The notes: a model not told the origin generated them from the sequence alone. A stretch of DNA of 64,000 nucleotides from Acetobacteraceae bacterium (GCA_049522565.1 JBEKNT010000001.1:677-64676), one strand, 5' to 3'. Positions 25,197 through 56,265 are shown, numbered from the stretch's first letter. Translations and numbers: made by a program.

Positions 25197-25207
25197 GAGT
25201 GCCGGGC

Positions 25208-29009: not shown

Positions 29010-29759
29010 ATGAGCCTCGCCGCTGACGCCAAGGGCTTGCCACTGTTCTACCGCCAGGTCCGCATGCTCAACACGCTGCGCGACCAGGACCTGCGCCTGA
29101 TGCCGCCGTCCGATTATGGATTCGCGGCCGGCAGCAATTCCATTCCGCTGGTGGCCGAGGAGTTCTTCGCCGCCCAGGCGCACTATCCCATCGTTTTCGC
29201 CGGCACCGAACACCCATCGCCGGTCGCGATCGTCGGACTGCGCGACAACGAGAACCTGTTCGTCGATGCCGACGGTACCTGGCGCGCCGACAGCTATCTG
29301 CCGCTGTATGTCCGCCGGCATCCCTTCATCTTCATCAAGGGCAATGACGGCACGTTGCACCTTGGTATTGACGCCGCCTCGCCGCGGCTGTCCGCGGATC
29401 GCGGGGAGCGGCTGTTCGATGCCAACCAGCCGACCGCGCTGACCAACGGCCTGCTCAAATTCTGCTCCGCGTTCAGCCGCCAGCACGACATCGCGGCGGC
29501 GCTCGGCGCGGCGTTGCATGCCCATGCGCTGCTGACGGAGTACCGTTTCGACGTCACCGCGGCCGGCCAGGCGCATCGGGTCGGCGGCTGCCGTGTGGTG
29601 GCGGAGGACCGGCTCGCCGCCCTGCCGGATGACGTCTTCCTCGAATGGCGCCGTGCCGGCTGGCTGCCGATGATCACCGCGCATCTGCTCTCGCTGCGGC
29701 AATGGGAAGCGCTCGGCCGGCTGGCCATGGAGCGCCCCGTTGCTTCGCTCGCCGCCTGA
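29010..29759 (+). CDS. SapC family protein (function unknown)
   Basis: I place the start at ATG 29010 (GGGGGA 9 nt upstream). IPLVAEEFFAAQAHYPIVFAG...PVAIVGLRDNENLFVDADGTWRADSYLPLYVRRHPFIF matches my recollection of the SapC-family N-terminal signature. Confidence 0.72.
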   Translation: MSLAADAKGLPLFYRQVRMLNTLRDQDLRLMPPSDYGFAAGSNSIPLVAEEFFAAQAHYPIVFAGTEHPSPVAIVGLRDNENLFVDADGTWRADSYLPLYVRRHPFIFIKGNDGTLHLGIDAASPRLSADRGERLFDANQPTALTNGLLKFCSAFSRQHDIAAALGAALHAHALLTEYRFDVTAAGQAHRVGGCRVVAEDRLAALPDDVFLEWRRAGWLPMITAHLLSLRQWEALGRLAMERPVASLAA

Positions 29760-47800: not shown

Positions 47801-49029
47801 TGACGCTGACCGGCGATATCGAGGATCCGATCGGTGCGATCAGCCTGAGCGCCGCCGGCGGCAACATCGTGGCGTCGGGCAACGCGGAGCTGGTGCGGGG
47901 CGCGTCGGTTACCCTGGATGCCGGCGGCAACATCGGCACAGCGGCGCAACGGCTGACCGTGGATGTGGTGGACAGTCCGCAGGCCGGGATCACGCTGAAC
48001 GCCAGTGCCGGCGGCGACCTGAACCTCGCGGTGCAAGCGCGGCTGCGCGATCCGTCGGCCTTCATCTTCACGCCGACGCTGGGCGACCTTGTCGCGGGCG
48101 GCAGCATCAACCTCGATCTGTTGCAGCCGGTGCGCGACAACACGGTTGTGGGGCCGGAATACAAGGTCACGGTCTACGACCAGTCGCCGACCTACGGACT
48201 TTTGACGACCACGCACAACGAGAACGCCTGGCCGAACGACGTTGGCGGGCCGCAGCCGCTGCCGCCCGGCGTCTTCGCCACCGGGAGCACGCCGTACGCC
48301 GCGACCTACTCGATCGGCCTGCTGGAAGCGGGTGGCAGCATCAGCGTGATCGACCCGGGCTCGACCCCCATCGGGCTGGCCGCGAAGGTCGAGTTGTTCA
48401 CCGCGGGCGGCAGCATCAGCGCGACGATGAGCGGCGACATCACGCTGACCGAGACCACCGGCAACCTGCGCGTCGGCAAGATCGACTCGACGGGCGGCAG
48501 TGTGACGCTGACCGCGCTGGCCGGCAGCATCGTCGGCCCGGCACCCGGGGGCGCCGGGCAGCCGGCAAGTGTGATCGGCGACAATATCGCACTGACGGCG
48601 GCACAGGGCAGCATCGGCAGCCTGAACGACGCGCTGAATATCCAGTTGCTCGGGGGCAAGCTGGACGCGCTCGCGCGGAACGGCATCAACATCTACGACG
48701 TCTCGGGCGCCTTGCCGATCGACTCAGTCGCGGCCGGCGGCGCGGTACTGATTGGGACTGCGGGGGGGAACATCCTGGTGGCGCCCGGCGCCGCCGGCCC
48801 GGAGGTGGTGGGCCAGACGGTCGCGCTGACCGCCAAGGGTGGCATCGGCATCACGGGGAACCCGCTGGTCGTGCAGTCCGCCGCCCCGAACGGGGTCACG
48901 AGCAACGCAACCGGCCGCACCTACATCGACGAGGTCGAGGGCGTGGTGCTGCACGAGGCCGGGTTGACCTGGACGCTGGGTGACGGCGGCACCAGCGCCG
49001 GCAGAGTGAATTGGGCGAGCCTGCTTTGA
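29821..49029 (+). CDS. Giant (6402 aa) extracellular repeat protein with N-terminal LEPR-XLL-type motif; LktA-like filamentous-adhesin-type Ala/Gly/Thr/Val repeats
   Basis: Single uninterrupted 19,209-nt ORF. N-terminus is MAFPFLMAALRAHGERRQRRLAANRRQAEGRLVFEALEPRVLLSAD, with LEPRVLLSAD at 29929-29958. Recurring units of about 45-50 aa, e.g. AAGAAGGTVGIGGSVSVSIIANTVDATIANATVTAAGNVGIIADDQDTIDAYGG. Codon usage and GC3 are consistent with neighbouring genes. Confidence 0.93.
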   Translation: MAFPFLMAALRAHGERRQRRLAANRRQAEGRLVFEALEPRVLLSADALTVALSGDAAHPMAHDVVVEAVSQALPNIESATVQMVQVVDLAANDQVLASAPLGSVSGIKITSGTGDTSLTVATASFGTANVPAITFAGGNGNNTLAVTGSKTTDWNITGNDAGTVTGSAAITFTGVANLSGGAENTNVFTVTQDGALTGTLSGTPDGSAGGNDSLVFKSDTVTNAAFTAAGPHSGTIDMDGSVFTYAGLTPIIFSGNASNITITGTANTDDLTLADTNVAGQLEVASLNNSLESVTFARPSVSLTVDFGTGSNDSLQIGTVQLAGASLTVAGGNGTDSISVDANAYVSTRDTTGNALTAPSVGNSGDLSLSAETITVNTGAKLYANANSGFTSGDVTLDAGSQGGAGQTAAASIAVHGAQIVGGDVDLDSAAGATATITQQTLATLSLDATAQTAIDGASGILATVGDVQIDANVDVTGQVTANAAPLGSLNADAALALSDVTADGAATVSGTTVLGAAGAVDVHSGNTTSVTTLADGSTGGATAVGGAIALADVSTGSTAQLGTGVKVAATTVAVEADSADVVGTTANATAGGATANGAAAQAALAGATTPDGSVTVAAALAATTLKDTNTATSDATTVTTTGGFDVIADTSRLVDTGAIAIGVQGGPGVGAAVALNAISVSSSATLGDTSTIYGNADVDVGTLRTGDIFGAVALSGAGSTDVGVAGALAVNAVSDDAFAGIAAAAQVSLPTGSLTVGVGQDGDAITDALAFLNGASPDPGVGASVAIAPVHFSAEAGVQAGAQLSVGTASSATESDASFSVDAQRTITTVADGGVADGTATAAALALTVAQDGASAELDAGAVVTVQGNLTLTATQTSDVHTSGSAEAGATATVAAFGIVLDNTDATTAATVVAQDAVSLTATGQTASTTLATAGPVGAQDGGPNAAALIAAELGFIGNPPGVTLPTPATADGAFGVAAAMALGVAIGRVSATVLPETASKEAISAQQISLEAAGEVTATTRADASPIDLTSGRVDVGAALALQTGQAIIVAEVDSPISAPDIALLAEAAPGTGITPNTVAGLFTVQAIAGAGESDVGVAGAMAIAGDGITVQALLDSAATSTSSGVVVLAAVGDSTSNVDATALSAADGVGAGASFSLNVSDATVTAEIEDGGSVTGTPGLLLGANGGQNATTTAEGGTDAGTATGAAFALAVVTDEITAGLTTRATAAAGTAILRATGDTTATTTTTGAADGQYAAIGASLALGILVDDVSADVAGRLIATGPVTMTATGTNTQTTTADAGSLGAEDGSLSAGALLANQLALLNDPNGIIVPALTTGAGTVGVAAALSFGVDDATVETDISGRVLTEGDLTMTATGGTTAKSEASGATVDPSLDGTGVAAAVAVMVATPKVSARIDGDALAADATLTANMATPTGHDIESNAESGAGDPNTGVAGSFALTVAAPVTEAVIGGSGILETLPGGNVTLSATGASQIAADARAEILGPGRSGLGASVALDIALDDTHAMLDQGAQVLDANNLTLTAKGTYGSAAHAEAGDQSGGAAGAIAINVAPQDTEAEANPGPSLTLTGTLMLQAEQNQGSIADANGGSSDRGGGFGAALAVNAPVASTTALLDRGANVANAINVIADSTASAEAEATAGIKGGSDDGTADGLSAQWLGVAGTDGSTTPPTIPSISAALANGAQQLGLTLPEVDAAAALSVDAAFGTTSASIAGGDPIIAGGNVLVLATGGSTADSQADASAITTADAGAVGFGFAVDFDDQALDASIGAGTPVSAQSITVQATVPREQAQQASAEAMSGAGASDGIAGALALSLVDNSTEAQILSTAPITAPGFIVVEATGDTSSAATAGEDVNGTVAGTGISLAGNLMVDHTAANVIAGADLNSLGQIRIEADGTQSLQSESAGTATAGLGAVPASLTADVLLATTAASVGDGAKIDTGITGGTATQNLLVLADDSTSLNATAGSLGAGALAGAGAAAQFSDLLKQTTADMDGTVQVAGSVEVEAQSKEAGFTAADAGAMAAGVSVAGGAGVQMGDLLTHAAIDGDAHVRAVGDVVVTALDTTQMDVFAGAVNAAVAASAGAGIGAIGLMKTTEALIENNAVVDAEGEGAGTQVANGFTISFVPGSSIPGEVAKPFLPSALTDIFGILLNNPLHNLISPVGSIPSDDFSSQDRVATPTFTTVHGVAVTALSHDDLALQATGLGASDVAGLELSASGVVDNATTRAEIGAGALVDQSGLPSSTSQSVLVFADGDTQAMVIAGTDSISGLLAVGPAAALLAIDPDTIAFIGAGAKVSAIDDLTVQAVGTDDLLTDATDVVASDLSVAGSVDALVLGGETYAYVDANATVIAGGSVSIVANETSQSENVAGALSDGTSGPVAVGASAGISLVATDTEAWIASDAHVTALGLETDQVPGIETDPTSATDFTVIEGVSVLATTNDLVMDLVANGSAGGFAAFIGSGAGVVIGNTTAAYIGTGAVVHAGAFGLNGLPLANATPATVSVGAVDNTHSFDGIASVVDGDLAISGAADAGVMRDATSATIDAGATIKASGDVDVAAWSTEVVDSFVGGLGLTSGGIELNVSASVYSIGAVAGSDLLDPLSVVGGPGSLESYLDGLLQGMVAQAGQGIVGILNQYAAGVGGQQAAATQLAALTPNDPVTGALTASNLGKIGTLANIDDAKVTAYGNVGVTAVDAVTPDLDTSFTFSYSFGSNDQNLNLSLDGGLLAGRANATASITGGSDVTATDNVAVQSQASTTQTVNSTYAFNSSSDNSSALVDDSRLTAGGDVTVNAQMNGYNKYSGILPGINGLKIRTSYNNEQNTTIASVTGHSVIDADGTVTVNAFSTSEDHTIADGATLLDQGFEGSFTLGVALAWNQIGDTTSATITDSNALAASVAVTATADTEDFTVALGIGDGDNNSVSLGGSGAENLMNDIVSASIEGATVLAPGGVSVLSTDDESLTAITGAAVARTNYGISAAVSLNTSEDVVSAEIGDSTVTTDSGGIQVVAVGTGNMSSLAAGVAQGKNLAGGVGAPVDTLGMLILADVTKGSVLTTGAGVTVTATGNGTIMTLAGGVAIALNQVGVGAAVSINNASDSVTAQIVGSQVTAGGAVDVEALSDPTIEALAFGFAYAPTIAVGGSVAYSYIDDTTTAEVDNSGKTGSKIYAGDGAITVMATDAPYIEVLTGAIAASSGEVAVAASVSINNVNDTVTVGVNDATLTAPVGPIIVQGVASPNILSIAVGGSGDETFAGVGAVADDNVGSTMTVTVGTATAVLTAPVVTVDGADNSNIGSAAYGVAGSGTVSIAGAVATNTITGGMVVSLDSDGVIDAQVADVEATNAATIEVMTGAADGAGTASGGAATSVNAITDDATSQVVGGKINAADTSVTASQTGTIEALATIGSGAGTADLVASVTTNNIYDAATATISSGAVINTGSGGSLTLSSTNGGDIESLSGAINGAGAAAINGAVANNNISLLTSTPGGANTTLENSTVTGGSANVDATDSATILSVAISGGGASTAAVGGSVTKANGNITATVAVTNNKETLTGALDIAASDSGDITTAAGNAEGAGTFAGGAAIAINTLNNNVTATLTGGNANVGSLSVTATANGSLGAVGAIGGGAGTVALDVSDTENTITGSLAAAITGGAVVTANGAVTVGATDQSQIESLSGAADGAGTVGGGAARAHNRIGAVASDPIASDPGDADPDEPSDATPSQAATTATIDDGSFVEGESVAVTAAFTGSIETAAIAGSGAGTAAIAGALTDNLIGDQVTSSISGANTTVFAAGVGQGQITVSATDGATIKSLAGSATGAGVVAVGVSAAVNKLRNAADASIDAANVWSLSGSVAVIASENGLIESISVAGSGGGDVALDAAVSLNDIADDIGATVDDSALVRAAQDITLHASDGGTIESSADGLAISGGFSGAGAVATNEIGDQITAGVTDATLRAIDDSVFILTDDSAGIENFSFAAGAGSIGLTATVSVNEIDNVLMAEIDASTVTAGNDVALDSTDNSSIGSIASQFSFGVLVGAGGAAAYNQIENSVGATIDDGSVVTASSGDVLVEAQEQATIQTLAAGAAGGTVGIGGSVSVSIIANTVDATIANATVTAAGNVGIIADDQDTIDAYGGELAGGFVGAAGSVAVVTLESQITASVENATVAARGITPALIMPDIDQTTGAAVNGSAGGVVVAARDLENAKVIAVTGAGGLGAIAGTVSDVHTATVTDAHITGSQINSASKPGSGVTVHASQATIVTTTLGAIAGGFVAVGGAVQVTTIDNRTQAYIADQVTGRETPGTATAVYANTINVSTATYENVSPTTVGVTVGAVAISGSVAYTNIASSSDAFVRDALLQAKNGAASITVAAEDNASIGTFAGDVSAGFVGAGAAVAVSEIGDTTLATLEGARLDANGAITVSASSTGNITDVAAGAAGGAVGIAGAVLVDSISTETEAATESYGGAATLINQDPGFAGTPGRDGGSLQSVTIEATGNETLDGTAGAAAIGLGAAGAGIQVGSIADLVAANVEGGTVITAAGNVSVTAKDQRNASSDAIAVAGGLLALSGAFSIITIGGAFDPSSVAQVNAGDTGSGPTNDQQLVSNANSSIDEEPAASGISTNQQTTAEGPSATVAQNAVGKLNQPAPTVGDNLFATPTNVSGTFATVDSTGSGGAPRITAGGNIAISASDGFSLNVSDGSGGGGLVSLGLSVGLATVTDTTTASATGGAVLAAGGDITVDANDASSSLSGVGVTTGSVGAIAVGGAVGDATLNLDVTAELGPDVTVTRAAGVDINTTQTANLAANGFDIAGGLAALGDVTTSTTIGGTVVAEVGQGSDLGSAATPIGTLTIAASGSDIGTASTTAGSGGVVAGESNSADATVNPDFSAVLDSDTTSDVAGSVAIVVQTSGVATTSAEGVTIGAGAIGLSDAEATLAIGDSARIGDDAMLTAGGNVTISAEHTTTADPLGQPNGSGVTATADSSGGGAISGNGATAGAYDNSTVAARVGEGSTVDAGGTLAILATVSNSAQANTNTLSIGVVAIGGQTATANTEGQATAALGNGTTVRAFGLEVEGAANDASDATSIAAAGGIFGTTVGAEADTDASPKVTASIGSNANVAVLSTVDVLAIAEPFTNGLAQGSTVSGFYAGGSSNANSSGTPDVEAEIEQDSVVKAGGGVQILAEVPTIGEISNGTFDASNGTVVSLANNEFYLVSPTLLQTGDQVVYETDGGKPIGGLTDGRTYSVINDGNGISLGQTFTGAQVNAATGTIQFAAPDGFMTGDKVVYSANGGTPIGGLVSGETYYVRVINPTTIKLATSLAEAEQVGESFNPTLITGGNLITLANNGFTNGEAVTYRSTGAGVAGLVNGDTYFVQRVNANQFRLSALPNGPALSISPGFFTGGQTLGAEGVAIDGAGITSPQSLTFDLTSLGTGVQRLAGVGGAAALLPFTPNDTYDATANASGGALVGNVGSQTDTTINGTTTAVIGSNTTVQSGGELTISVTAQRPSTAVASGIGAGLVGLGSGSVTTNDTENTSITVGDGSSLVAGQDVMIDVDGGVDANASSQSNGGGAVKVATSNTTVTVDPTTGIFVGQGARITAAFQVTLGAQGEVGGLDQASSGGFGFFASDSDSYTTVTIGAPVNDGTDPAVLSVQIGDGANLSGGNILLIASYDGLNPQVDTYADATGGTVYPTAISSLNMATNALVDVGAGAILSAANQVTLLTNYGAGGTYTLSAVTDRTAVVGHQDAGVGDFQQLASNIDVEDGAVITAHNLQASATIGASEPNIEALEGGYNGDEQPDNIQQSATEIRNIVFDGEAVLTAGPSPVLVVNEFGQIAYEYGVTASVSGGNIVVNPITDTSPGVATFSSDEGSQWMASGNGVEGMQEGSVISGTEGSITFVDTFPSVTLDNGSALNMVVNGIDPVLRTPGAAVNVQLDDTSLFSFTLANVFRPTTITVANTAPTGIGNLTLTGDIEDPIGAISLSAAGGNIVASGNAELVRGASVTLDAGGNIGTAAQRLTVDVVDSPQAGITLNASAGGDLNLAVQARLRDPSAFIFTPTLGDLVAGGSINLDLLQPVRDNTVVGPEYKVTVYDQSPTYGLLTTTHNENAWPNDVGGPQPLPPGVFATGSTPYAATYSIGLLEAGGSISVIDPGSTPIGLAAKVELFTAGGSISATMSGDITLTETTGNLRVGKIDSTGGSVTLTALAGSIVGPAPGGAGQPASVIGDNIALTAAQGSIGSLNDALNIQLLGGKLDALARNGINIYDVSGALPIDSVAAGGAVLIGTAGGNILVAPGAAGPEVVGQTVALTAKGGIGITGNPLVVQSAAPNGVTSNATGRTYIDEVEGVVLHEAGLTWTLGDGGTSAGRVNWASLL

Positions 49030-49133: not shown

Positions 49134-51002
49134 ATGCTGGAACCGGCGCTGTGGCGTCAGCTTGCGGACGCGGCCGAGCCGGCGGCGCGGGCCGCGTCCT
49201 GGGCGGCACTGGTAACCAGGCTGATCCCGGGAGCGTATCAGGCGACGGTGGTCCTGGCCGGACCCGAGGGCTTTGCCCCCATCGCGCTCTGGCCGGCGGG
49301 CCAGCCGCCGGGGAACCTGCTGATGGCGGCGGTCGAGGCGGCGCTGGAACAGCGTGCGGGTGCCGTGCGCCTGGGACGCGCCGCCGGCGCAGGGCGGGAC
49401 GCGGCGGCCGGGGAGGGTGCGGCGCGCAACGGCGGAGACCGGGAGGGCGCAGTCGCCCTGCCCCTGCTCGCCGGCACCGCGTTGCTGGGTGCCGCGGCGG
49501 TAGCCCTCACCGGCACCGATGACGCCCGGATCCGTGCCGCCATGCGGCACCTGCAATGGGGCGCCGGCTGGCTGCGCGGCAGCGCCGGCGCGACGGACAA
49601 CGATGCGAGCCCGGGTCCGGAGTCGCACCAGGTCCTCGGCCCGCACCAGATCCTGGAATTGCTCGCCGCGGTGGTCGAGGAGACCAGCTTCCGTGCCGCG
49701 GCCCAGCGCGTGGTGACCGAGACCGCGATCCGCTTCGGTTGCGACCGGGTCAGCCTTGGGCTGTTGCGCGGCACCACGATGAAGGTCGATGCCATCTCGC
49801 ACAGCGCTGTGGTGGAAGCCCGCAGCGGCACCACGCGCTTGCTGGCGGACGCCATGGCCGAGGCGGTGGACCAGCGGGCACTGCTGCGCTTTCCGCCCAC
49901 CACCGAGGACGCGCTCGAGCCGTTGGCGCGGCACGCCCAGGAGCAGCTCGCCGCCCCGAGCGGCGCGGCCATTCTGACCATCCCGCTGTTGCAGCAGGAC
50001 CGGGCGATCGGCGCGCTGCTGTTGGAACGGCCGGGCGCGCATCCTCTGGCGGCGGTGGACATCGCGCGGCTGGATGCGCTGGCCGCCTTGGTCGGGCCGG
50101 TGCTGGCGGAGAAGTGGCGCGACGACCGCTGGGTGGCGACCAAGGTCGGCGAGAGCCTGGCGCGCCAGACCCGGCTGCTGTTGGGTCCGACCCACGTCGC
50201 ACGCAAGCTCACGATGCTTGCGATGGTGCTGTTCGCCGTGCTCGCCGGCACCTGGCACGGCGAATACCACATCATCGCCGAGGCCCGCCTGGAGGGCACC
50301 GTCCGCCGCAGCATCGTGTCCGGCCTCGATGGCTTCCTGCGGGAGGCGCCGGTGCGCGCCGGCGACCGGGTGCATGCCGGCGACCTGCTGGCAGCGCTCG
50401 ACGACCGGGACCTGACGCTGGAACGGTTGCGCTGGACGACCGAGCGTCAGCAACGGCAGTTCGAACTGGAACGCGCCATCGGCGACCGCCGGCGCGCCGA
50501 GACCAACATCCTCCAGGCGCAGCTCGCCCAAGCGAACGCCCAGGTCGAGCTGGCGGATGCCCAGCTCGCCCGTACCCGGTTCGTGGCCCCGTTCGATGCG
50601 CTGGTGGTGGCCGGCGACCACAGCCAGTCGATCGGCGGCGCGGTCCGCCGGGGCGACGTGTTGTTCGAACTGGCCCCGCTGGAGGACTGGCGTGTCCTGC
50701 TGGAGGTCGAGGAGTCGCAGGTCGCGGATGTGCGGCCGGGCCAGCACGGCAGGCTGGTGATCGCCGCGATGCCGTATCAGGGCCTGGACTTCACCGTCAC
50801 CCGCGTCACGCCGGTCGCCGAGGTCAACGACGGCCGTTCCGTGTTCCGGGTGGAGGCGGCGCTGGCCGAGGCATCGCCCCGGCTGCGGCCGGGCATGCAG
50901 GGCGTTGGGCGGATCGAGGCCGGGCAGCGGCTGGTGTCCTGGATCTGGACCCGCCGCATCGCGGAACAGGTGCGGCTGCTGTTCTGGCAGGTGTTCCCGT
51001 GA
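49134..51002 (+). CDS. Tandem GAF-like domains + TM segment + HlyD-type membrane-fusion (periplasmic adaptor) protein
   Basis: I place the start at ATG 49134; track start 49011 overlaps the giant gene and the repeat. GAF-like region: VVTETAIRFGCDRVSLGLLRG...ILTIPLLQQDRAIGALLLERPG...LDALAALVGPVLAEK. TM segment: LTMLAMVLFAVLAGTW. HlyD-like region: VRAGDRVHAGDLLAALDD, coiled coil, RFVAPFDALVV, GRSVFRVEAAL. Confidence 0.8.
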   Translation: MLEPALWRQLADAAEPAARAASWAALVTRLIPGAYQATVVLAGPEGFAPIALWPAGQPPGNLLMAAVEAALEQRAGAVRLGRAAGAGRDAAAGEGAARNGGDREGAVALPLLAGTALLGAAAVALTGTDDARIRAAMRHLQWGAGWLRGSAGATDNDASPGPESHQVLGPHQILELLAAVVEETSFRAAAQRVVTETAIRFGCDRVSLGLLRGTTMKVDAISHSAVVEARSGTTRLLADAMAEAVDQRALLRFPPTTEDALEPLARHAQEQLAAPSGAAILTIPLLQQDRAIGALLLERPGAHPLAAVDIARLDALAALVGPVLAEKWRDDRWVATKVGESLARQTRLLLGPTHVARKLTMLAMVLFAVLAGTWHGEYHIIAEARLEGTVRRSIVSGLDGFLREAPVRAGDRVHAGDLLAALDDRDLTLERLRWTTERQQRQFELERAIGDRRRAETNILQAQLAQANAQVELADAQLARTRFVAPFDALVVAGDHSQSIGGAVRRGDVLFELAPLEDWRVLLEVEESQVADVRPGQHGRLVIAAMPYQGLDFTVTRVTPVAEVNDGRSVFRVEAALAEASPRLRPGMQGVGRIEAGQRLVSWIWTRRIAEQVRLLFWQVFP

Positions 51003-51015
51003 CGGTAGGGAAGAT

Positions 51016-51078: not shown

Positions 51079-51114
51079 GACTTGCCTTTCTGCCCCGATG
51101 CCGGGCTCCCTCTG

Positions 51115-53346
51115 ATGTCAGCATCGTTGTTCAGCCCCGACTGGTATCGCGTTGCCGATCTTCGCCCACGGCTGCGGCCGCGCGCGGCGCTGCACCGGCG
51201 CGAAATGCGCGGCCGGCTATGGCATCTCGCGCAGGATCACCAGAGCGGCCGGTTCTACCGGCTGTCGCCCGCGGCGTATCTGATGGTCTGCCTGCTGGAC
51301 GGCCGGCGGACGCTGCGGGAGGCGTGGGAGATGGTCGGCCGCCGGCATGGCGCCGCCCAGCCGAGCCAGGAGGAAACCATCCTGTTGCTGGCCCAGCTCC
51401 ACCGCGCCGACCTCCTGCTGGGTGAGCTGCCGCCCGATATCGCCGAGATCGCGCGGCGCGGCGAGCGGATGCAGCGCCACGCCTTGCTGATGCGGCTGCG
51501 CAACCCGCTCGCCTTGCGGCTGCCGCTGTTCAACCCGGACCGCTTCCTGGACCACACCATGAAGCTGGTGCGCCCGATCTTCTCGCTCCCGGGCTTGCTG
51601 CTCTGGCTGGCGCTGGTCGGCACCGGCATCGTGCTGGCTGTGGTGCACCGCGCGGAGCTCACCGCGGATGTGCTGGACCGTGCCCTGACGCTGCACGGCA
51701 TCACCCTGGTGCTGCTGGCCTATCCGCTGGTGAAGGCGGCGCACGAATTCGGCCATGCCTATGCCTGCAAGCGCTGGGGTGGCGCGGTGCACGAGATGGG
51801 CGTGATGTTGCTGGTGCTGTTTCCGGTGCCGTACGTCGATGCCAGCTCGGCCACGGCGTTCCCCCGCATCTGGCAACGCGCCCTGGTCGGCGCCGCCGGC
51901 ATCATGGTGGAGCTGGCACTGGCCGCGGTCGCGATGATGGTGTGGGTCGAGGCCAGCACAGGCGCGGTGCGCGCCACGGCCTTCAACGTCATGCTGATCG
52001 GCGGTGTCTCCACCCTGTTGTTCAACGGCAATCCGCTGCTGCGGTTCGACGGCTACTACGTGCTGTGCGATTTGATCGGCCTGCCGAACCTGGCGCAACG
52101 CGGCAGCCGCTACATGCTCTACCTGGTGCAGCGCTACGGCTTCGGTCAGGCGACGCTGCACAGTCCGGCCGAGACCGCGGGCGAGAAACGCTGGCTGGTC
52201 GGCTACACGCTGGCCTCCGTCTCCTACCGCATCGTGCTGACCCTGGGCATCGCCTTGCTGCTGGCCTCCCGGTTCCTGCTGGTGGGTGCATTGCTCGGCT
52301 GCTGGAGCGTGGGCTCGCTGGTGGTCTGGCCGGTGTTGAAGGGCGTGCTGCATGTCGCGCGTGCGCCCCGGCTGGCGGGGCGGCGGCCGCGAGCGCTGCT
52401 GGTCGCGGGGTTGCTGGCCGGGGTGCCGGCGCTGCTACTGTTCGGCCTGCCGGTCCCGTACGGCACGCTCGCGCAGGGCGTGGTGCAGGTGCCGGAAGGC
52501 GCGATGCTGCGGGCCCCCACCGAAGGCGTGGTGCGGCGGGTTCTCGCGACTCCCGGAAGCCGGCTGCACCAGGGCGATCCCATTCTGGAGCTGGAGGAAC
52601 CGGCCCTGCCTGCTGCGTTGGCGGTGGTGGAAGCGCAGCGCGATGAGCTGCGGCTGCGGCTGGACGCCGTGCTGCTGACCGACCGGGTCTCGGCCGAACT
52701 GCTGCGCGAGCAGGTGCGGCGCGCCGAGGCGACGGTCGCGCTCGGCCGCGCAAGGCTGGCGGAGCTGATCGTCCGCGCCCCACGCGATGGCGTGCTGGTG
52801 CTGCCGGAGGCGAGCGATCTGCCGGGCCGCTTGCTGCATCGCGGCGACGTGCTGGGCGACGTGCTGGAAGCCGGCGACGTCAGCATCCGCGTCGTGGTGC
52901 CGCAGGACCGGATCGACCTGGTGCGTGGCCGCACCAAGGGGGTGGAGGTGCGGCCGGCCTATGCGGTGTTCCGGCCGATGGCAGCGACGATTTCGCGCGA
53001 ATTGCCGGGTGCGGTACGGGAGATGCCCAGCGCGGTGCTCGGGCTTGCCGCCGGCGGCGAGATCGCCACCGACCCCACCGATGCATCCGGTCGCCGCGCG
53101 TTCGAGCAAACCTTCCTGGTCGATGTGGTGCCGGTCGGGGCGGCGGCGAGCATGGCGCTGGCCGGTGTGACGGACCATGCCGCATCGCCCGGCGGCATGG
53201 ACAGCACAACGCCCCCTGGCGTGGCGGATAGTGGCGTCTGGATCGGCGGGCGTGCCTATGTCCGCTTCGACCATGGGGAGGAACCGTTGGGATGGCGCCT
53301 GCTGCGCGGGCTGCGCCAATTGTTCCTGCATCGCCTCGATGTTTGA
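51115..53346 (+). CDS. Fusion protein: PqqD-like N-terminal region + polytopic M50 (site-2 protease) metalloprotease + C-terminal HlyD-type adaptor domain
   Basis: I place the start at ATG 51115 (MSASLFSPDWYRVADLRPRLR); the track uses TTG 51082. HEFGH at 51742-51756 and FNGNPLLRFDGYY are S2P/M50 signatures, with multiple hydrophobic TM stretches. N-terminal FYRLSPAAYLMVCLLDGRRTLREAW...LLLAQLHRADLL is PqqD-like. C-terminal LRAPTEGVVRRVLATPGSRLHQGDPILELE, a coiled coil and IVRAPRDGVLVL are HlyD-like. Confidence 0.8.
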   Translation: MSASLFSPDWYRVADLRPRLRPRAALHRREMRGRLWHLAQDHQSGRFYRLSPAAYLMVCLLDGRRTLREAWEMVGRRHGAAQPSQEETILLLAQLHRADLLLGELPPDIAEIARRGERMQRHALLMRLRNPLALRLPLFNPDRFLDHTMKLVRPIFSLPGLLLWLALVGTGIVLAVVHRAELTADVLDRALTLHGITLVLLAYPLVKAAHEFGHAYACKRWGGAVHEMGVMLLVLFPVPYVDASSATAFPRIWQRALVGAAGIMVELALAAVAMMVWVEASTGAVRATAFNVMLIGGVSTLLFNGNPLLRFDGYYVLCDLIGLPNLAQRGSRYMLYLVQRYGFGQATLHSPAETAGEKRWLVGYTLASVSYRIVLTLGIALLLASRFLLVGALLGCWSVGSLVVWPVLKGVLHVARAPRLAGRRPRALLVAGLLAGVPALLLFGLPVPYGTLAQGVVQVPEGAMLRAPTEGVVRRVLATPGSRLHQGDPILELEEPALPAALAVVEAQRDELRLRLDAVLLTDRVSAELLREQVRRAEATVALGRARLAELIVRAPRDGVLVLPEASDLPGRLLHRGDVLGDVLEAGDVSIRVVVPQDRIDLVRGRTKGVEVRPAYAVFRPMAATISRELPGAVREMPSAVLGLAAGGEIATDPTDASGRRAFEQTFLVDVVPVGAAASMALAGVTDHAASPGGMDSTTPPGVADSGVWIGGRAYVRFDHGEEPLGWRLLRGLRQLFLHRLDV

Positions 53347-55378
53347 CGCGGCCCCGCCATCCCGGGCGCTGCCCGCGCTCTGGCGCTACCCGGAGCGTGC
53401 CGACGCCGAACGCGCACCGCTCGACCGGTGGCTGCACCAACACGTGGGTGGCGCGATGCTGCGTTGTACCGGTGGATTGCGGCGGCGGCGCCTGGCCGGC
53501 TTCGCGCGCGCGGTGACCGTGACCGGGGCGGCGTCGGCCGCACTGGATGACGCGGCGCTGGCCGCGGCGGCGCGGGAGGCCGGCATCGCGCTGCGCCGCC
53601 GCGCCACGGATCGTGCCGCCCTGGTCTGGCTGTTCGCCCTGGTGCGGGAGGCCGCTTCCCGCAGCCTCGGCTTCCGGCCGTACGAGACCCAGGTGATGGG
53701 CGCCGCGGCGCTGTGGCGCGGCGCGGTGGCGGAGATGGCGACCGGCGAGGGCAAGACCGCCGCGGCCGGGCTGTGCGCGGCGGCGGCGGCGCTGGCCGGC
53801 CGTGCGGTCCACGTCATCACGGTGAACGATTACCTGGCCGGGCGTGATGCCGCGACCATGGCACCGCTGTTCCAGCGCCTGGGCCTGTCGGTGGCCGCGG
53901 TGACGGGGGGGATGTCGGCGGACGCCCGCCGCGCGGCCTATGCCGCCGCCATCTGCTACGGCACCAGCAAGGAGATCGTCTTCGACCATCTGCGCGACCG
54001 GCTGGCGCTGGGGCCGGAGCGTGGCGCGCTGCGGCTGCGGCTGGCCGGCTTTGCCGGGGCGCCGCCGAAGCTGCTGCTGCGCGGCCTGGACTTCGCGATC
54101 GTGGACGAGGCGGACAGCGTGCTGGTCGATGCGGCTCGCACGCCGCTGATCCTGTCCGGCGAACAGGAGTCGCAGGTCGATGAGGAGACCGCTGCCTTGG
54201 CGTTGGCGCTGGCCGACCGGCTGGAGGCCGGCCGCGACTGGCAGCGCCTGCCGGGTATGCTCAGCGCCCACCTGACCGAGGCGGGCGAGATCCGGCTGGC
54301 CGCGCTGGTCGAGGCCGAACCGGGATACGCCGGGTCCGGGCTCCGGGCATCCGGCCCTTGGGCATCCGGTCCTTGGGCGATACCGCGGCTGCGCGAGGAG
54401 CTGGTGCGCCACGCGCTGGCCGCCCGGCACCTGTTTCGCGCCGGCGAGCACTATCTGGTCCGCGACGCCCGCACCGTGATCATCGATGAATTCAGCGGCC
54501 GCCTGATGCCCGACCGGCAATGGGCGGACGGGCTGCACCAGATGATCGAGGCGAAGGAAGGTTGCGCGCTGACCCGTCGGCGGGTCACGCTGGCGCGGCT
54601 GACCTATCAGCGCTTCTTTCCGCGCTATCGGCACCTGTCCGGCATGACGGGAACCGCTGCCGAAGTCGCCGGCGAGCTTTGGGCGGTCTACGGGTTACCG
54701 GTTGCCCGGATTCCGACCCATCGGCCATCGCGCCGCGTGCGGGTGCCGGACCGCCTGCTGGCGGACGCCACCGCCAAGTGGGCTTCCGTCGCTGCCCATG
54801 CCGCCGCGTTGCGGGCAGCCGGCCGTCCCGTCCTGATCGGCACCCGCACGGTGGCGGCGGCGCAGCGGGCGAGCCTCGCGCTGACGGCGGCGGGACTGCC
54901 CCATGCGGTACTGAGCGCCGCGCAGGACGCTGCCGAGGCGGCCACCATCGCCGAGGCCGGCACGGTCGGCCGGATTACGGTTGCCACCAACATGGCCGGG
55001 CGCGGCACCGACATCAGGCTCGCACCCGAGGTCGCCGCTGCCGGCGGGTTGGCGGTCTTGCTCACCGAACGCCACGAGGCTGGGCGCATCGACCGCCAGC
55101 TTGCCGGCCGCGCGGCCCGCCAGGGCGACCCCGGGAGCGTGGCCGCGATCCTGGCGCTGGATGACCCGCTGCTGGAGGCGGCAGGGCTGCTGCCGCGCCT
55201 GCTGGCGCGCTGCGGCGGGTGGTTGCGCGGCTTCCGGGTGGGGGCGCGATTGGCTGGCTGGGCGTTACGCCGGGCGCAGAAGAGCCAGGAACGCGCCCAT
55301 GCGGCAGCCCGCCAGGCATTGCTGCGGCAGGACCGGATGCGCGCCGAGCGGTTAGGTTTCGCGGGAGTAGGGGAATGA
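53339..55378 (+). CDS. SecA-like ATPase paralogue (NBD1-PPXD-NBD2 motor), truncated soon after NBD2
   Basis: I place the start at ATG 53339, which overlaps the upstream stop (ATGTTTGA). RPYETQVMGAAAL..AEMATGEGKTAAAGL, VHVITVNDYLAGRDA, ICYGTSKEIVFDHLRD, FAIVDEADSVLVDAARTPLILSG, HYLVRDARTVIIDEFSGRLMPDRQWADGLHQMIEAKEG, LSGMTGTA, TNMAGRGTDIRL and TERHEAGRIDRQLAGRAARQGDPG align motif-by-motif with canonical SecA. Confidence 0.85.
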   Translation: MFDAAPPSRALPALWRYPERADAERAPLDRWLHQHVGGAMLRCTGGLRRRRLAGFARAVTVTGAASAALDDAALAAAAREAGIALRRRATDRAALVWLFALVREAASRSLGFRPYETQVMGAAALWRGAVAEMATGEGKTAAAGLCAAAAALAGRAVHVITVNDYLAGRDAATMAPLFQRLGLSVAAVTGGMSADARRAAYAAAICYGTSKEIVFDHLRDRLALGPERGALRLRLAGFAGAPPKLLLRGLDFAIVDEADSVLVDAARTPLILSGEQESQVDEETAALALALADRLEAGRDWQRLPGMLSAHLTEAGEIRLAALVEAEPGYAGSGLRASGPWASGPWAIPRLREELVRHALAARHLFRAGEHYLVRDARTVIIDEFSGRLMPDRQWADGLHQMIEAKEGCALTRRRVTLARLTYQRFFPRYRHLSGMTGTAAEVAGELWAVYGLPVARIPTHRPSRRVRVPDRLLADATAKWASVAAHAAALRAAGRPVLIGTRTVAAAQRASLALTAAGLPHAVLSAAQDAAEAATIAEAGTVGRITVATNMAGRGTDIRLAPEVAAAGGLAVLLTERHEAGRIDRQLAGRAARQGDPGSVAAILALDDPLLEAAGLLPRLLARCGGWLRGFRVGARLAGWALRRAQKSQERAHAAARQALLRQDRMRAERLGFAGVGE

Positions 55379-56265
55379 GACGTCTGTTGTTGCCGGGCTC
55401 GCGGATCGCCGGCGTCGCTCGTGCCCGTCTGGTGCCACGCTGCGCCCGCCTTGTGGGCGCCATCCTCGTGTGCACCATGCTGGGGTCCGGCATCCGGGTC
55501 CCGGCTGCCCTGGCGGAGGGGAGTGACTTCGACTGCGTGATGGATCCGTCGCTTCGGGTGAATGTCGGCAGCGCGATCCCCGGCCTGCTGGAAGCGGTAC
55601 TGGTCCAGCGCGGCGACCGGGTGCATGCCGGCCAGGTCGTCGCCCGGCTGGTTTCGGACGTCGAGGCAGCGCAGGTCGCGCTCGACCGGCTGCGCGCTGC
55701 CAGCACGGCGGAGATCGAGGCGCGCGAGGCGCAGTTGACCCTGTCGCGCCGCCAGTTGGAGCGAACTCAGGAGCTGTACCAGCATCAGGTGGCGACCGCG
55801 GAGCGGCTGGACGAACTGCGTGCCCAAACCGAGATCAACGACCGCGAATTGCGGCTGGCACGCCAGGCGCAGGAAGTGACCCGGCTGGAGTTGCAGCGCT
55901 CCGAAGCCACATTGCGGCAGCGGGAAATTCGCAGCCCGATCGATGGGCTGGTGACCGAACGGCTGATGACCGGCGGCGAATATGTTCACCAGGAAGCGGT
56001 GATCCTGCGGCTGGCGCGGTTGGACCCGCTGTATGTGGAGACCTTCCTGCCGGTGCGACTCTACCCGCTGCTGCATATCGGCCTGGACGCGGTGATCGAG
56101 CCGGCGGCACCGATCGGCGGCAGGATCCCGGCCCGGGTTGCCGAGGTGGACCAGGTGTTCGACGCCGCCAGCGGCAGTTTCGGCGTCCGGCTGGAATTGT
56201 CGAACGCGGACGGGCGGCTGCCGGCGGGCCATCGCTGCAAGGTCAGCTTTCAGTTGGACGAATAG
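55375..56265 (+). CDS. HlyD/RND-type periplasmic adaptor (membrane-fusion) protein
   Basis: I place the start at ATG 55375, which overlaps the SecA-like stop (ATGA). N-terminal signal/anchor LVGAILVCTMLGSGIRVPAALA. VQRGDRVHAGQVVARL, coiled coil, IRSPIDGLVTE, GSFGVRLELSN. Confidence 0.82.
   Translation: MRRLLLPGSRIAGVARARLVPRCARLVGAILVCTMLGSGIRVPAALAEGSDFDCVMDPSLRVNVGSAIPGLLEAVLVQRGDRVHAGQVVARLVSDVEAAQVALDRLRAASTAEIEAREAQLTLSRRQLERTQELYQHQVATAERLDELRAQTEINDRELRLARQAQEVTRLELQRSEATLRQREIRSPIDGLVTERLMTGGEYVHQEAVILRLARLDPLYVETFLPVRLYPLLHIGLDAVIEPAAPIGGRIPARVAEVDQVFDAASGSFGVRLELSNADGRLPAGHRCKVSFQLDE

What the first reader, a model, noticed from the sequence alone, without database searches (positions are those of the whole stretch)
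51115..53346. Three-part fusion: PqqD-like (leader-binding?) region, intact site-2 protease core, and HlyD adaptor in one polypeptide
Seen: the N-terminal ~100 aa resemble PqqD/RRE proteins (FYRLSPAAYLMVCLLDGRRTLREAWEMVG...ETILLLAQLHRADLLLGE). The centre has several TM stretches with HEFGH and NPLLRFDGYY. The C-terminal ~330 aa have HlyD hallmarks: barrel-sandwich LRAPTEGVVRRVLATPGSRLHQGDPILELE, a coiled coil, and IVRAPRDGVLVL. Established: HExxH plus NxxPxxxxDG are the two catalytic signatures of S2P/M50 intramembrane proteases, and PqqD-type RREs bind leader peptides of modified peptides. Inference: one protein could bind a leader, cleave it within the membrane, and connect to an outer-membrane duct. 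That role resembles the C39 peptidase domain of bacteriocin ABC exporters, built here on a different scaffold. The LEPR-XLL N-terminus of the upstream giant is a candidate substrate. A second, stand-alone PqqD gene sits in this window at 25208.
Basis: partly seen in the sequence, partly recalled or inferred. Interest (0 to 1): 0.7.

Follow-up and report, generated by a model that had tools for sequence, protein, structure and literature searches.

The report
Leader-reader, protease and duct adaptor fusion
This gene really encodes one membrane protein with a peptide-leader-binding domain, a membrane-embedded zinc protease and a periplasmic duct adaptor; it belongs to a widespread, already catalogued but never tested gene module, which here and in many other bacteria sits next to giant surface-type proteins that all share one N-terminal tag.

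Summary
ORF 51115-53346 (743 aa) has three parts:
- a cytoplasmic PqqD/RRE-like domain, with beta-beta-beta-alpha-alpha-alpha topology and Foldseek top hits to the lasso-peptide RREs TbiB1 and TfuB1;
- a 7-TM M50 core whose HExxH and NPxxxxDG residues are invariant in 115 homologues;
- a periplasmic MexA/AcrA/HlyD-type adaptor.

It is not unique. At least 3,305 50%-identity cluster representatives match its N-terminal half at E<=1e-30, and the best 150 are almost all about 715 aa.

It is the second gene of a conserved module: GAF-HlyD, RRE-M50-HlyD, a truncated SecA-like ATPase and a small HlyD, with DUF3467, SapC or TolC in some loci. Kamneva et al. (2015) described this module and called its role unknown.

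What I add is a cargo link. In at least 21 loci a giant gene (2,000-13,000 aa) adjoins the module. All 12 giant N-termini that are visible or annotated carry the LEPR-XLL motif after a basic leader.

The most likely function is the inner-membrane hub of an ABC-less, type-I-like export route. It would read and probably clip the LEPR-XLL leader and connect to TolC. Binding, cleavage and export are inferred, not shown.

The parts
28947..29759 (+). SapC-family gene directly upstream of the giant gene; a recurrent companion of the system
   Evidence: Pfam SapC 206 bits. SapC also lies next to the giant in L003 and inside the module in L051 and L050.
29821..49029 (+). Giant protein (6,402 aa), the putative cargo. 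It has no cysteine, no Pfam domain hit and no hydrophobic signal peptide.
29821..29976 (+). N-terminal leader of the giant: a basic stretch (MAFPF...RRQRRLAANRRQ) followed by the LEPR-XLL motif VFEALEPRVLLSAD (NF012209 match at residues 32-52)
   Evidence: NF012209 32 bits against a cut-off of 17. The same layout is seen in 9 other giants next to the module.
49134..51002 (+). GAF-HlyD protein (cytoplasmic GAF domain, one TM, periplasmic adaptor), the first module gene. The ORF is open from 49011; the likely start is ATG 49134.
   Evidence: Pfam GAF 27.9 bits, HlyD_3 48 bits, HlyD_D23 45.8 bits. TM at residues 355-373 and start codon. It lies directly upstream of the fusion in every locus with upstream sequence.
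51115..53346 (+). The finding: the RRE(PqqD-like)-M50-HlyD fusion protein, 743 aa
51166..51414 (+). PqqD/RRE-like domain (residues about 18-100: strands 24-31, 34-41, 46-50; helices 52-59, 67-81, 85-97), predicted cytoplasmic
   Evidence: AF2 topology. Foldseek hits TbiB1 5v1u, TfuB1 6jx3 and CteB 5why. The two best sequence-profile hits in the PDB are PqqD 5sxy and TbiB1. PqqD Pfam hits in 66/68 homologues.
51535..52446 (+). M50-type membrane core (residues about 141-444): seven TM helices (158-177, 193-220, 252-279, 284-304, 355-386, 388-416, 424-444) plus a beta-hairpin at 224-244
   Evidence: AF2; hydropathy; daptide_HExxH NF041824 E 7.8e-46.
51742..51756 (+). HEFGH zinc-binding and catalytic motif (H210, E211, H214)
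   Evidence: Invariant in 68 + 47 homologues.
52030..52053 (+). NPLLRFDG motif (N306, P307, D312 as third zinc ligand)
   Evidence: N306, P307 and D312 are invariant in 68 + 47 homologues.
52450..53346 (+). Periplasmic adaptor (HlyD/MFP) part, residues 446-743: lipoyl/barrel-sandwich, alpha-hairpin 497-549, beta-barrel. The insert at 681-706 is low-confidence.
   Evidence: Foldseek hits MexA, AcrA and MacA, E about 1e-11. HlyD_3 is above its cut-off. The profile also hits T1SS HlyD (8dck, 7sgr) and LipC.
53339..55378 (+). Truncated SecA-like ATPase (679 aa from ATG 53339, overlapping the fusion's stop by 8 nt). It has NBD1, PPXD and NBD2 with Walker A GEGKT and DEAD, but lacks the wing domain, two-helix finger and C-terminal tail.
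   Evidence: Pfam SecA_DEAD 300.8 bits, SecA_PP_bind, P-loop_SecA. It aligns to B. subtilis SecA residues 36-602 only. Motifs. The same 8-nt overlap occurs in L001 and L003.
55375..56265 (+). Small HlyD-type adaptor (296 aa from ATG 55375, ATGA overlap with the SecA-like gene), with an N-terminal signal-anchor
   Evidence: RND_mfp 138 bits, HlyD_D23 65.7 bits. Start codon and TM. Orthologues sit directly beside LEPR-XLL genes in L022, L030, L032, L042, L059 and L060.

Best explanation
The gene encodes the inner-membrane hub of a dedicated, type-I-like, ABC-less export apparatus for giant proteins that carry an N-terminal LEPR-XLL leader.

Shown here:
- the protein has a cytoplasmic RRE/PqqD-type peptide-binding domain, a 7-TM M50 zinc protease whose active site lies at the cytoplasmic face, and a periplasmic HlyD/MexA-type adaptor;
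- it is always preceded by a GAF-HlyD protein, and usually followed by a translationally coupled, truncated SecA-like motor and a third small HlyD protein, with TolC encoded alongside in some genomes;
- giant LEPR-XLL genes adjoin this module in many unrelated proteobacteria.

Inferred:
- the RRE domain captures the conserved h-h-F-E-x-L-E-P-R-h-L-L-S-A-D strand of the leader, as RREs capture RiPP leaders;
- the M50 site clips the leader at or before translocation, which is functionally analogous to the C39 domain of bacteriocin ABC exporters;
- the SecA-like motor, which keeps its preprotein-binding domain but lacks the parts that engage SecY, pushes the unfolded, cysteine-free polypeptide;
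- the three adaptor proteins form the periplasmic tube to a TolC-type channel.

The identity of the inner-membrane pore is unknown.
For: Architecture and fold:
- Domain calls and fold are supported.
- H210/E211/H214 and N306/P307/D312 are invariant in 68 sequences at >=49% identity and in 47 sequences down to 33% identity.
- Seven TM helices, a very basic 417-423 loop and an Arg-rich N-domain place the RRE and active site inside and the adaptor outside.
- The RRE's canonical ligand surface, beta3 (R46, R49, S51) and alpha3 (Q85, E87, I89, L91, L92, L95, H96), is the best-conserved part of that domain.

Module conservation:
- GAF-HlyD is always upstream. The SecA-like gene and small HlyD are downstream, in 43 genome loci plus plasmids.
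- The 8-nt and 4-nt gene overlaps indicate co-translation.
- The SecA-like protein keeps NBD1, PPXD and NBD2, Walker A and DEAD, but ends at about residue 602 of B. subtilis SecA.
- TolC is encoded in the module in Methylosinus, Thalassospira and L062.

Cargo link:
- A giant ORF adjoins the module in at least 21 loci.
- All 12 giants whose N-terminus is visible or annotated are LEPR-XLL: window, L003, L022, L030, L032, L042 (two), L047/L056, L048, L051, L053/L057 and L055.
- Starting instead from LEPR-XLL N-termini, 3 of 7 contexts show module genes immediately upstream. L062 has TolC, GAF-HlyD, the fusion and the SecA-like gene.
- The giant has no Sec-type signal and no cysteine.
Against: - No binding, cleavage or secretion data exist for any member. 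Kamneva et al. found most module genes barely expressed in M. extorquens AM1 in exponential phase.
- Some modules have no giant within 7-10 kb (L001, L025, L033, L035, L038, L039).
- Some LEPR-XLL genes have no module within 10 kb (L058; L060 has only the small HlyD). Linkage is therefore frequent, not obligatory, and genome-wide co-occurrence was not measured.
- Several gammaproteobacterial and Thalassospira modules lack the SecA-like gene, so the energy source is unclear there.
- No inner-membrane channel component is evident.
- The RRE fold matches have only modest E-values (0.02-0.1).
- This protein alone scores below the Pfam cut-offs for PqqD and M50.
- No solved S2P sequence is hit by the family profile.
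Confidence: 0.55

Rival explanations
1. It is a RiPP maturation and export protein. The RRE binds the leader of a small ribosomal peptide, the M50 removes it, and the HlyD part exports the product. The giant neighbour would be incidental.
For: The closest named relatives of the N-terminal 410 aa are RiPP intramembrane metalloproteases: daptide NF041824 at E 7.8e-46 and YydH/LiaK NF058609. Databases name homologues 'PqqD family peptide modification chaperone' and 'putative peptide zinc metalloprotease'. EpeP/YydH is thought to both cleave and export its peptide. A radical-SAM, methyltransferase and halogenase-like operon lies beside the module in L001 and L003.
Against: No small precursor gene or modification enzyme is conserved with the module, and none is present in this window next to it. 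In L003 the rSAM/OMT genes are co-directional with the giant itself. The constant neighbours are two more adaptors and a SecA-like motor that keeps a preprotein-binding domain. Giants adjoin at least 21 loci and always carry the same leader motif. The score of 157 bits is far below the 300-bit equivalog cut-off.
Confidence: 0.12
2. The module does export LEPR-XLL giants, but the M50 domain is not the leader peptidase. It would serve as the membrane pore or scaffold, as Kamneva et al. suggested, or as a quality-control or regulatory protease that clears stalled cargo or signals through the GAF partner. The leader would be retained or removed by something else.
For: No other polytopic membrane protein is encoded in the module, so the 7-TM domain is the only candidate conduit. 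Kamneva et al. proposed the pore role. The GAF domain suggests regulation.
Against: All six metal-binding and catalytic residues are invariant over wide divergence, which a pure scaffold would not need. The protease is fused to a leader-type peptide-binding domain on the same side of the membrane as the active site.
Confidence: 0.2
3. The giant crosses the inner membrane by the general Sec pathway, or is not exported at all. The module would be a tripartite efflux or envelope-spanning device with an unrelated substrate, co-located with giant genes for regulatory reasons.
For: Some modules lack the SecA-like gene and some lack a nearby giant. HlyD-type adaptors usually serve small-molecule pumps.
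Against: The giant's N-terminus has no hydrophobic Sec-type h-region. The module has no RND, ABC or MFS pump partner. The truncated SecA lacks the two-helix finger needed to engage SecY. The association with one specific leader motif spans three proteobacterial classes.
Confidence: 0.08

Closest known systems
Secondary SecA_DEAD locus of Kamneva, Poudel and Ward 2015 (PLoS One, PMC4452313): GAF, Peptidase_M50, SecA_DEAD and HlyD/Biotin_lipoyl genes, e.g. M. extorquens AM1 META1p2402-2399
   Same: The gene content and order are the same. This window's four genes (49134-56265) are an instance of it, and Methylobacterium and Mesorhizobium orthologues are 50% identical.
   Different: [quoted passage not shown] It saw M50 as a possible pore rather than a leader peptidase.
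RRE-fused or stand-alone M50 intramembrane proteases of RiPP pathways: daptide protease family NF041824, YydH/EpeP/LiaK NF058609, TglG/TmoG
   Same: The PqqD-like plus HExxH membrane protease architecture matches end to end over residues 18-410. The logic of leader recognition and cleavage at the membrane is the same.
   Different: The score is below the equivalog cut-offs (157 vs 300; 28.6 vs 225). This protein carries an extra periplasmic adaptor domain, has SecA-like and HlyD partners, and its neighbouring candidate substrate is a 6,402-aa protein, not a peptide.
Peptidase-containing ABC transporters (C39 domain) and classical type I secretion (HlyB-HlyD-TolC)
   Same: Both have an inner-membrane unit that reads and removes a leader during export, joined by an HlyD-type adaptor to TolC. 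The profile hits T1SS HlyD (8dck, 7sgr) and LipC. TolC is encoded in some modules.
   Different: There is no ABC transporter in the module. The protease is a metallo-M50 rather than a cysteine C39. The ATPase is SecA-derived. There are three different adaptors. The signal is N-terminal rather than a C-terminal RTX-type signal.
Site-2 proteases (RseP, SpoIVFB, M. jannaschii S2P)
   Same: HExxH and NxxPxxxxDG motifs lie in separate TM segments, with a beta-hairpin after the HExxH helix.
   Different: There are no PDZ or CBS domains and no anti-sigma context. The Pfam score is just under its cut-off. No solved S2P sequence is matched by the family profile. The M50 core is fused to RRE and adaptor domains.
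SecA_DEAD domains embedded in giant proteins of Omnitrophota and Actinobacteria (bioRxiv 10.1101/2023.11.21.568195)
   Same: A truncated SecA motor lacking the scaffold and wing domains is associated with giant proteins and was proposed to help export them.
   Different: There the motor is part of the giant polypeptide. Here it is a separate 679-aa protein in an operon with adaptors and a protease.

Membership tests
Peptidase M50 / site-2 protease | HExxH motif within a TM helix | tested here: met
   HEFGH 210-214 lies in predicted helix 193-220. H210, E211 and H214 are invariant in 115 homologues.
Peptidase M50 / site-2 protease | Second motif NxxPxxxxDG supplying the third zinc ligand | tested here: met
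   NPLLRFDG 306-313 follows helix 284-304. N306, P307 and D312 are invariant.
Peptidase M50 / site-2 protease | Pfam PF02163 score above the gathering cut-off | tested here: not met
   25.6 bits against a cut-off of 27.2 for this protein. The family does hit at E<=0.01 in 68/68 homologues, best 3.5e-8.
Peptidase M50 / site-2 protease | Similarity to a solved S2P structure | tested here: inconclusive
   The family profile does not reach any solved S2P sequence at E<=1. In the fold search of the full model, adaptor proteins filled the 50 matches listed.
PqqD / RiPP recognition element (RRE) | Three-stranded sheet followed by three helices (winged-helix-like) | tested here: met
   Strands 24-31, 34-41, 46-50 and helices 52-59, 67-81, 85-97 appear in two independent AF2 models.
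PqqD / RiPP recognition element (RRE) | Structural similarity to known leader-bound RREs | tested here: met
   Foldseek hits TbiB1 5v1u/5v1v, TfuB1 6jx3 and CteB 5why/5wgg among the top 15, with probability 0.85-1.0 and target-normalised TM-score 0.55-0.64 for TbiB1/TfuB1 (0.13 for the much longer CteB). E-values are only 0.02-0.16.
PqqD / RiPP recognition element (RRE) | Pfam PF05402 above the gathering cut-off | tested here: not met
   17.8 bits against 23.4 for this protein. PF05402 hits 66/68 homologues at E<=0.01, best 2.5e-7. The two best profile hits in the PDB are PqqD 5sxy and TbiB1, at E about 0.1-0.2. hhalign to the window's own PqqD gives E 9e-5, probability 59%.
PqqD / RiPP recognition element (RRE) | Binds a leader peptide | not testable with these tools
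   This needs a co-fold prediction or binding assays. The beta3/alpha3 surface is the most conserved part of the domain.
HlyD / membrane-fusion (periplasmic adaptor) proteins | Lipoyl/barrel-sandwich, alpha-hairpin and beta-barrel domains | tested here: met
   HlyD_3 34.2 bits against 22.2. Foldseek hits MexA, AcrA and MacA at E about 1e-11 over about 300 columns. Hairpin helices at 497-519 and 524-549.
HlyD / membrane-fusion (periplasmic adaptor) proteins | Periplasmic location after a membrane anchor | tested here: met
   Prediction only: seven TM helices, a basic cytoplasmic loop at 417-423, then TM7 at 424-444 leading out.
Classical type I secretion system | ABC transporter as the inner-membrane energiser | tested here: not met
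   No ABC exporter is in the module here or in the homologous loci. The only ABC gene in the window is an ABC-F-type protein at 2337-4199.
Classical type I secretion system | TolC-family outer-membrane partner | tested here: inconclusive
   None is found in this window. TolC/OEP is encoded at the module in Methylosinus, Thalassospira and L062.
Secondary SecA_DEAD module (Kamneva 2015) | Co-directional GAF-HlyD, M50(-HlyD), SecA_DEAD and HlyD/Biotin_lipoyl genes | tested here: met
   Window genes 49134-51002, 51115-53346, 53339-55378 and 55375-56265. The same order occurs in L001 and L003 and many other loci.
RiPP biosynthetic gene cluster | Short precursor peptide gene plus modifying enzymes next to the RRE protein | tested here: not met
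   None is conserved with the module and none adjoins it in the window.
daptide intramembrane metalloprotease NF041824 (equivalog) | Score above the 300-bit equivalog cut-off | tested here: not met
   156.9 bits. It is a homologue with the same N-terminal architecture, not a member.

The most novel reading that the evidence does not exclude
This module is a distinct, so far unnamed protein-secretion pathway of Gram-negative bacteria. In it an RRE-type domain, known until now only from small-peptide natural-product biosynthesis, reads an N-terminal LEPR-XLL secretion leader on proteins of 2,000-13,000 residues. A fused M50 intramembrane protease removes the leader. A SecY-independent, SecA-derived motor and three HlyD-type adaptors then deliver the unfolded giant through TolC.
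Probability: 0.4. Interest if true: 0.85.

Novelty: new member of a known kind. Interest (0 to 1): 0.6.

Why it matters
Giant surface proteins are among the largest investments a bacterium makes, and for the LEPR-XLL class no export route is documented in the literature I could search. The 2015 description of the SecA_DEAD/HlyD/M50 module left its biological role open. Pairing the module with a specific, conserved N-terminal leader on adjacent giants turns that open question into a set of simple experiments: protease-dead mutant, leader-reporter fusions and N-terminal sequencing. It also suggests that a peptide-recognition domain from RiPP chemistry and a Sec-derived motor have been re-used to build a secretion system without an ABC transporter. 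If this is wrong, the protein is still a well-defined member of a very large family that databases name inconsistently (PqqD chaperone, peptidase M50, HlyD adaptor, biotin/lipoyl-binding protein), and its annotation could be unified.

Tried and rejected
- **Literature.** 'LEPR-XLL' and 'DUF3467' gave only incidental mentions. Combinations of SecA, HlyD, M50 and PqqD gave nothing beyond Kamneva 2015 and a RiPP protease review.
- **DUF3467 against PDB sequences.** No meaningful hit, so a SecB-like chaperone role could not be tested.
- **Reverse search with the giant's first 250 aa.** It found only 8 close relatives.
- **Reverse search with a LEPR-XLL leader profile.** It returned only short N-terminal fragments of 105 aa or less. 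In the seven contexts examined, the giant itself mostly hides the downstream side. The reverse association is therefore only partly tested: 3 of 7 show module genes adjacent.
- **Family profile against PDB sequences.** It did not reach any solved site-2 protease. The full-length Foldseek list was filled by adaptor proteins.
- **Promoter and terminator scans** around the giant and the module were uninformative.
- **DUF3467 search.** An HMM found no copy in this window or in the beta- and gamma-type loci, so it is an accessory, not core, component.
- **The stand-alone PqqD (25199-25477) as a partner of this system.** Rejected. It sits with an HprK-related-kinase-A-like gene, a GT4 glycosyltransferase and PEP-CTERM-type genes, and no such gene accompanies the module elsewhere.
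- **Co-fold of leader peptide with the RRE domain.** Not attempted.
Full report
**1. The observation**

The ATG at 51115 matches the start of the 100%-identical database entry P0001 ('MAG: hypothetical protein, Acetobacteraceae bacterium'). It also matches the consensus N-terminus M-x-x-S-L-F-S-x-S-W-Y-R-V of 68 homologues.

On this sequence alone:
- Pfam gives HlyD_3 above its cut-off (34.2 vs 22.2 bits).
- Peptidase_M50 is just below its cut-off (25.6 vs 27.2).
- PqqD is below its cut-off (17.8 vs 23.4).
- NCBIfam aligns residues 18-410 end to end with the 'daptide biosynthesis intramembrane metalloprotease' model (E 7.8e-46, profile positions 1-368 of 379). That is a family of PqqD-fused HExxH membrane proteases, but the score is far below its equivalog cut-off.

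Scanning 68 homologues one by one gives M50 in 68, PqqD in 66 and HlyD_3 in 63. The three-part reading is therefore not a chance pattern.

**2. Structure and topology**

An AlphaFold2 model built on 68 homologues (mean pLDDT 83.2) shows three parts:
- A beta-beta-beta-alpha-alpha-alpha domain at residues 24-97.
- Seven long helices (158-177, 193-220, 252-279, 284-304, 355-386, 388-416, 424-444), with a beta-hairpin at 224-244 straight after the HExxH helix.
- From residue 446, a lipoyl/hairpin/barrel adaptor.

Foldseek of the full model against the PDB returns MexA, AcrA, MacA, CusB and ZneB at E about 1e-11. The family profile also touches the T1SS adaptors HlyD (8dck, 7sgr) and LipC.

A separate model of residues 1-140 (pLDDT 72) finds several RRE-containing proteins among its top 15 hits:
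- TbiB1 bound to its leader (5v1u, 5v1v).
- TfuB1 bound to its leader (6jx3).
- The RRE-containing sactisynthase CteB (5why, 5wgg).

These hits have probabilities of 0.85-1.0 but modest E-values of 0.02-0.16. The two best sequence-profile hits in the PDB are PqqD (5sxy) and TbiB1.

I take the PqqD/RRE fold as supported, the adaptor fold as firmly supported, and the M50 assignment as supported by motifs and HMMs. No M50-only model could be made to compare with a solved S2P structure.

Topology is a prediction. Seven TM helices, an Arg-rich N-domain and a very basic 417-423 loop put the RRE in the cytoplasm and the adaptor in the periplasm. HExxH lies in the cytoplasmic half of TM2, and D312 lies just after TM4 on the cytoplasmic face. 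The protease would therefore meet its substrate on the same side as the RRE.

**3. Conservation of the active site**

H210, E211, H214, N306, P307 and D312 are invariant in 68 database homologues at 49% identity or more. They are also invariant in 47 proteins extracted from genome loci down to 33% identity. In the RRE domain, the best-conserved positions lie on beta3 (R46, R49, S51) and alpha3 (Q85, E87, I89, L91, L92, L95, H96). From established knowledge of RREs, this is the groove where leader peptides bind.

**4. It is a large, already catalogued family**

A word-indexed search found over 6,800 hits. The best 120 are almost all 713-717 aa and come from Mesorhizobium, Methylobacterium, Bradyrhizobium, Roseibium and many MAGs. 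Their names vary: 'putative peptide zinc metalloprotease protein', 'PqqD family peptide modification chaperone', 'peptidase M50', 'site-2 protease family protein', 'HlyD family efflux transporter periplasmic adaptor subunit' and 'biotin/lipoyl-binding protein'.

An exhaustive phmmer search with residues 1-455 against 1.84 billion cluster representatives gives 3,305 representatives at E<=1e-30. The top 150 are again nearly all about 715 aa. The fusion is thus a fixed, widespread architecture.

**5. The module**

In the window the gene sits in a tight co-directional block:
- GAF-HlyD, 49134-51002.
- The fusion.
- A SecA-like gene whose ATG at 53339 overlaps the fusion's stop by 8 nt, exactly as in Methylobacterium currus (L001) and Mesorhizobium neociceri (L003).
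- A small HlyD gene whose ATG at 55375 overlaps the SecA-like stop (ATGA).

Across 43 genome loci from alpha-, beta- and gammaproteobacteria, GAF-HlyD directly precedes the fusion wherever upstream sequence exists. The SecA-like gene follows in most loci. It is absent in L030, L032, L034, L035, L037, L039 and Thalassospira. The small HlyD follows or lies nearby.

The SecA-like protein aligns with B. subtilis SecA residues 36-602 only. It has NBD1, the preprotein cross-linking domain and NBD2, with GEGKT and DEAD motifs. It lacks the wing domain, the two-helix finger and the C-terminal tail. From established knowledge of SecA-SecY complexes, it therefore cannot engage SecY in the canonical way.

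This four-gene module was described by Kamneva, Poudel and Ward in 2015 (PMC4452313). [quoted passage not shown] That paper does not mention PqqD, cargo or giant proteins. I found no follow-up.

**6. The cargo link**

The gene just upstream (29821-49029) encodes a 6,402-aa protein. It has no cysteine, no Pfam hit and no hydrophobic signal peptide. It has a basic N-terminus followed by VFEALEPRVLLSAD, which matches NF012209 LEPR-XLL.

This is a pattern, not a coincidence.
- In the genome loci, LEPR-XLL N-termini flank the module in L003 (a 10,068-aa protein that also begins MAFPF), L022, L030, L032 and L042 (one on each side).
- Giant ORFs run off the locus edge directly upstream in L007, L008, L010, L015, L019 and L040. 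L006 has a 2,291-aa ORF.
- On annotated plasmids the arrangement 'giant, (DUF3467), GAF-HlyD, fusion, SecA-like, HlyD, (TolC)' recurs as follows:
  - Methylosinus C49: 8,847 aa; labelled LamG-like, but its N-terminus reads IIFDTLEPRVLLNAD.
  - Pontibrevibacter: LEPR-XLL, 10,603 aa.
  - Pseudosulfitobacter: LEPR-XLL, 12,918 aa, with SapC inside the module.
  - Mesorhizobium ciceri: 10,518 aa; labelled Ig-like, N-terminus VHFEALEPRLLLSAD.
  - Thalassospira marina: LEPR-XLL, 4,033 aa, TolC present, no SecA-like gene.
  - Unannotated giant ORFs lie upstream in three more plasmids.

In total, a giant adjoins the module in at least 21 loci. All 12 giants whose N-terminus I could see or that PGAP annotated are LEPR-XLL.

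Aligning ten leaders shows 23-57 basic residues and then h-h-F-E-x-L-E-P-R-h-L-L-S-A-D. Similarity stops after the motif.

**7. Reverse test**

Starting from a LEPR-XLL leader profile, the database returned only short N-terminal fragments. Their sources include Deltaproteobacteria, Betaproteobacteria, Planctomycetota and Verrucomicrobiaceae. This range overlaps the one Kamneva et al. reported for the module.

Of seven contexts examined:
- L062 has OEP/TolC, GAF-HlyD, the fusion, the SecA-like gene and then LEPR-XLL.
- L059 and L060 have a small-HlyD orthologue immediately upstream.
- L058 has nothing within 10 kb.
- In L061, L063 and L064 the downstream side is hidden by the giant or by IS elements.

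Linkage is therefore frequent but not obligatory. Whole-genome co-occurrence remains untested.

**8. Mechanism**

- Shown: the architecture, the conserved catalytic residues, the operon partners, and the adjacency to LEPR-XLL giants.
- Predicted (AF2 model and hydropathy): the membrane topology.
- Inferred: the RRE binds the conserved leader strand. The M50 site, which faces the cytoplasm, clips it. The SecA-like motor, where present, drives the unfolded chain. The three adaptors connect to TolC.

The system also resembles RiPP M50 proteases such as EpeP, which is thought to both cleave and export its peptide.

Open points:
- There is no obvious inner-membrane pore.
- The energy source in SecA-less variants is unknown. 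In my small sample these variants accompany smaller cargo (2,183 and 4,033 aa, against 6,402-12,918 aa).
- The roles of GAF, DUF3467 and SapC are unknown.

**9. Rivals**

- A RiPP maturation role fits the database names and the nearest HMMs. However, no precursor or conserved tailoring genes accompany the module.
- A non-peptidase role for M50 (pore, scaffold or quality control) cannot be excluded. It sits poorly with six invariant catalytic residues fused to a leader-binding domain.
- A Sec-dependent or unrelated-substrate model is disfavoured by the leader's lack of a hydrophobic core, the truncated SecA and the absence of any pump partner.

**10. Verdict**

- The fusion itself is not new. 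It is a member of a large family inside a module published in 2015.
- What appears not to be in the searchable literature is the pairing of that module with LEPR-XLL giants and the recognition of an RRE-type reader in it.
- Interest is 0.6. It is ordinary as a sequence family and potentially important as an uncharacterised secretion route with an identified candidate signal.

Noticed in passing
window 21901-25477: The stand-alone PqqD-family gene (25199-25477; TIGR03859 32.9 bits, below cut-off) follows a GT4 glycosyltransferase (23877-25196, PEP-CTERM/XrtA-type stp1 102 bits). Nearby is an ORF with weak similarity to HprK-related kinase A (21901-23643, 26.8 bits). This looks like a separate cassette, not a partner of the fusion.
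   Followed up: partly
window 25570-27755: A 292-aa Pro/Gly/Ser-rich repeat protein (GPIGSNLGGPIGSNL...) ends in ...VPEPASALLLGSAVALTGGGLLARRVR. By eye this resembles a PEP-CTERM sorting signal, but no HMM hit was obtained. It is followed by a PrsT-like TPR protein (TIGR02917, 104 bits).
   Followed up: no
window 27756-29759; L003 804-1586; L051 22260-23081: A SapC-family gene sits immediately before the giant here, preceded by a 2OG-Fe(II) oxygenase at 27756-28544. SapC also sits before the giant in Mesorhizobium neociceri and inside the module in Pseudosulfitobacter and Ensifer. SapC seems to be a recurrent accessory of the system.
   Followed up: partly
L001 7740-8027, L003 7746-8066, L047, L048, L053, L054, L055: A conserved ~100-aa DUF3467 protein lies between the giant gene and GAF-HlyD in many alphaproteobacterial modules. 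It is absent from this window and from beta- and gamma-type loci. It has no PDB sequence relative, so its role (chaperone?) is unknown.
   Followed up: partly
L030, L032, L034, L035, L037, L039, L055: Some modules lack the SecA-like gene altogether. Where the cargo is visible it is smaller (2,183 and 4,033 aa) than in SecA-containing modules (6,402-12,918 aa). The sample is too small to call this a rule.
   Followed up: no
window 29821-29835 and L003 702-688 (- strand): The giants of this Acetobacteraceae MAG and of Mesorhizobium neociceri both begin MAFPF, although the rest of the basic leader differs. This is possibly a second short conserved element at the extreme N-terminus.
   Followed up: no
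window 29821-49029: The 6,402-aa giant has no Pfam domain at E<=0.001 in any of four segments, contains no cysteine and is 43% Ala+Gly+Thr. Its fold and function are entirely open.
   Followed up: partly
L001 2158-7443, L003 1685-5953: A methyltransferase, halogenase-like, unknown and radical-SAM gene set lies next to the module in Methylobacterium and Mesorhizobium. In L003 it is co-directional with SapC and the giant, hinting at post-translational modification of the giant. It is not present in this window.
   Followed up: no
L060 19092-20222 and 3472-5307; L061 5937-8946: GGDEF/EAL proteins flank LEPR-XLL giants that carry DUF4347 after the leader. This recalls the c-di-GMP control of LapA-type giant adhesins.
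   Followed up: no
window 53339-55378 vs annotations in L047, L051, L048, L053: Orthologues of the truncated SecA-like ATPase are annotated inconsistently in RefSeq, as 'prepilin peptidase', 'DEAD/DEAH box helicase', 'hypothetical protein' or 'preprotein translocase subunit SecA'. The fusion protein is likewise named in at least six different ways.
   Followed up: no
window 57196-60047: Sulfate-activation genes cysD (PAPS_reduct, 172 bits) and a fused cysN/cysC (GTP_EFTU + APS_kinase) follow the module. No link to it was seen in other loci.
   Followed up: no
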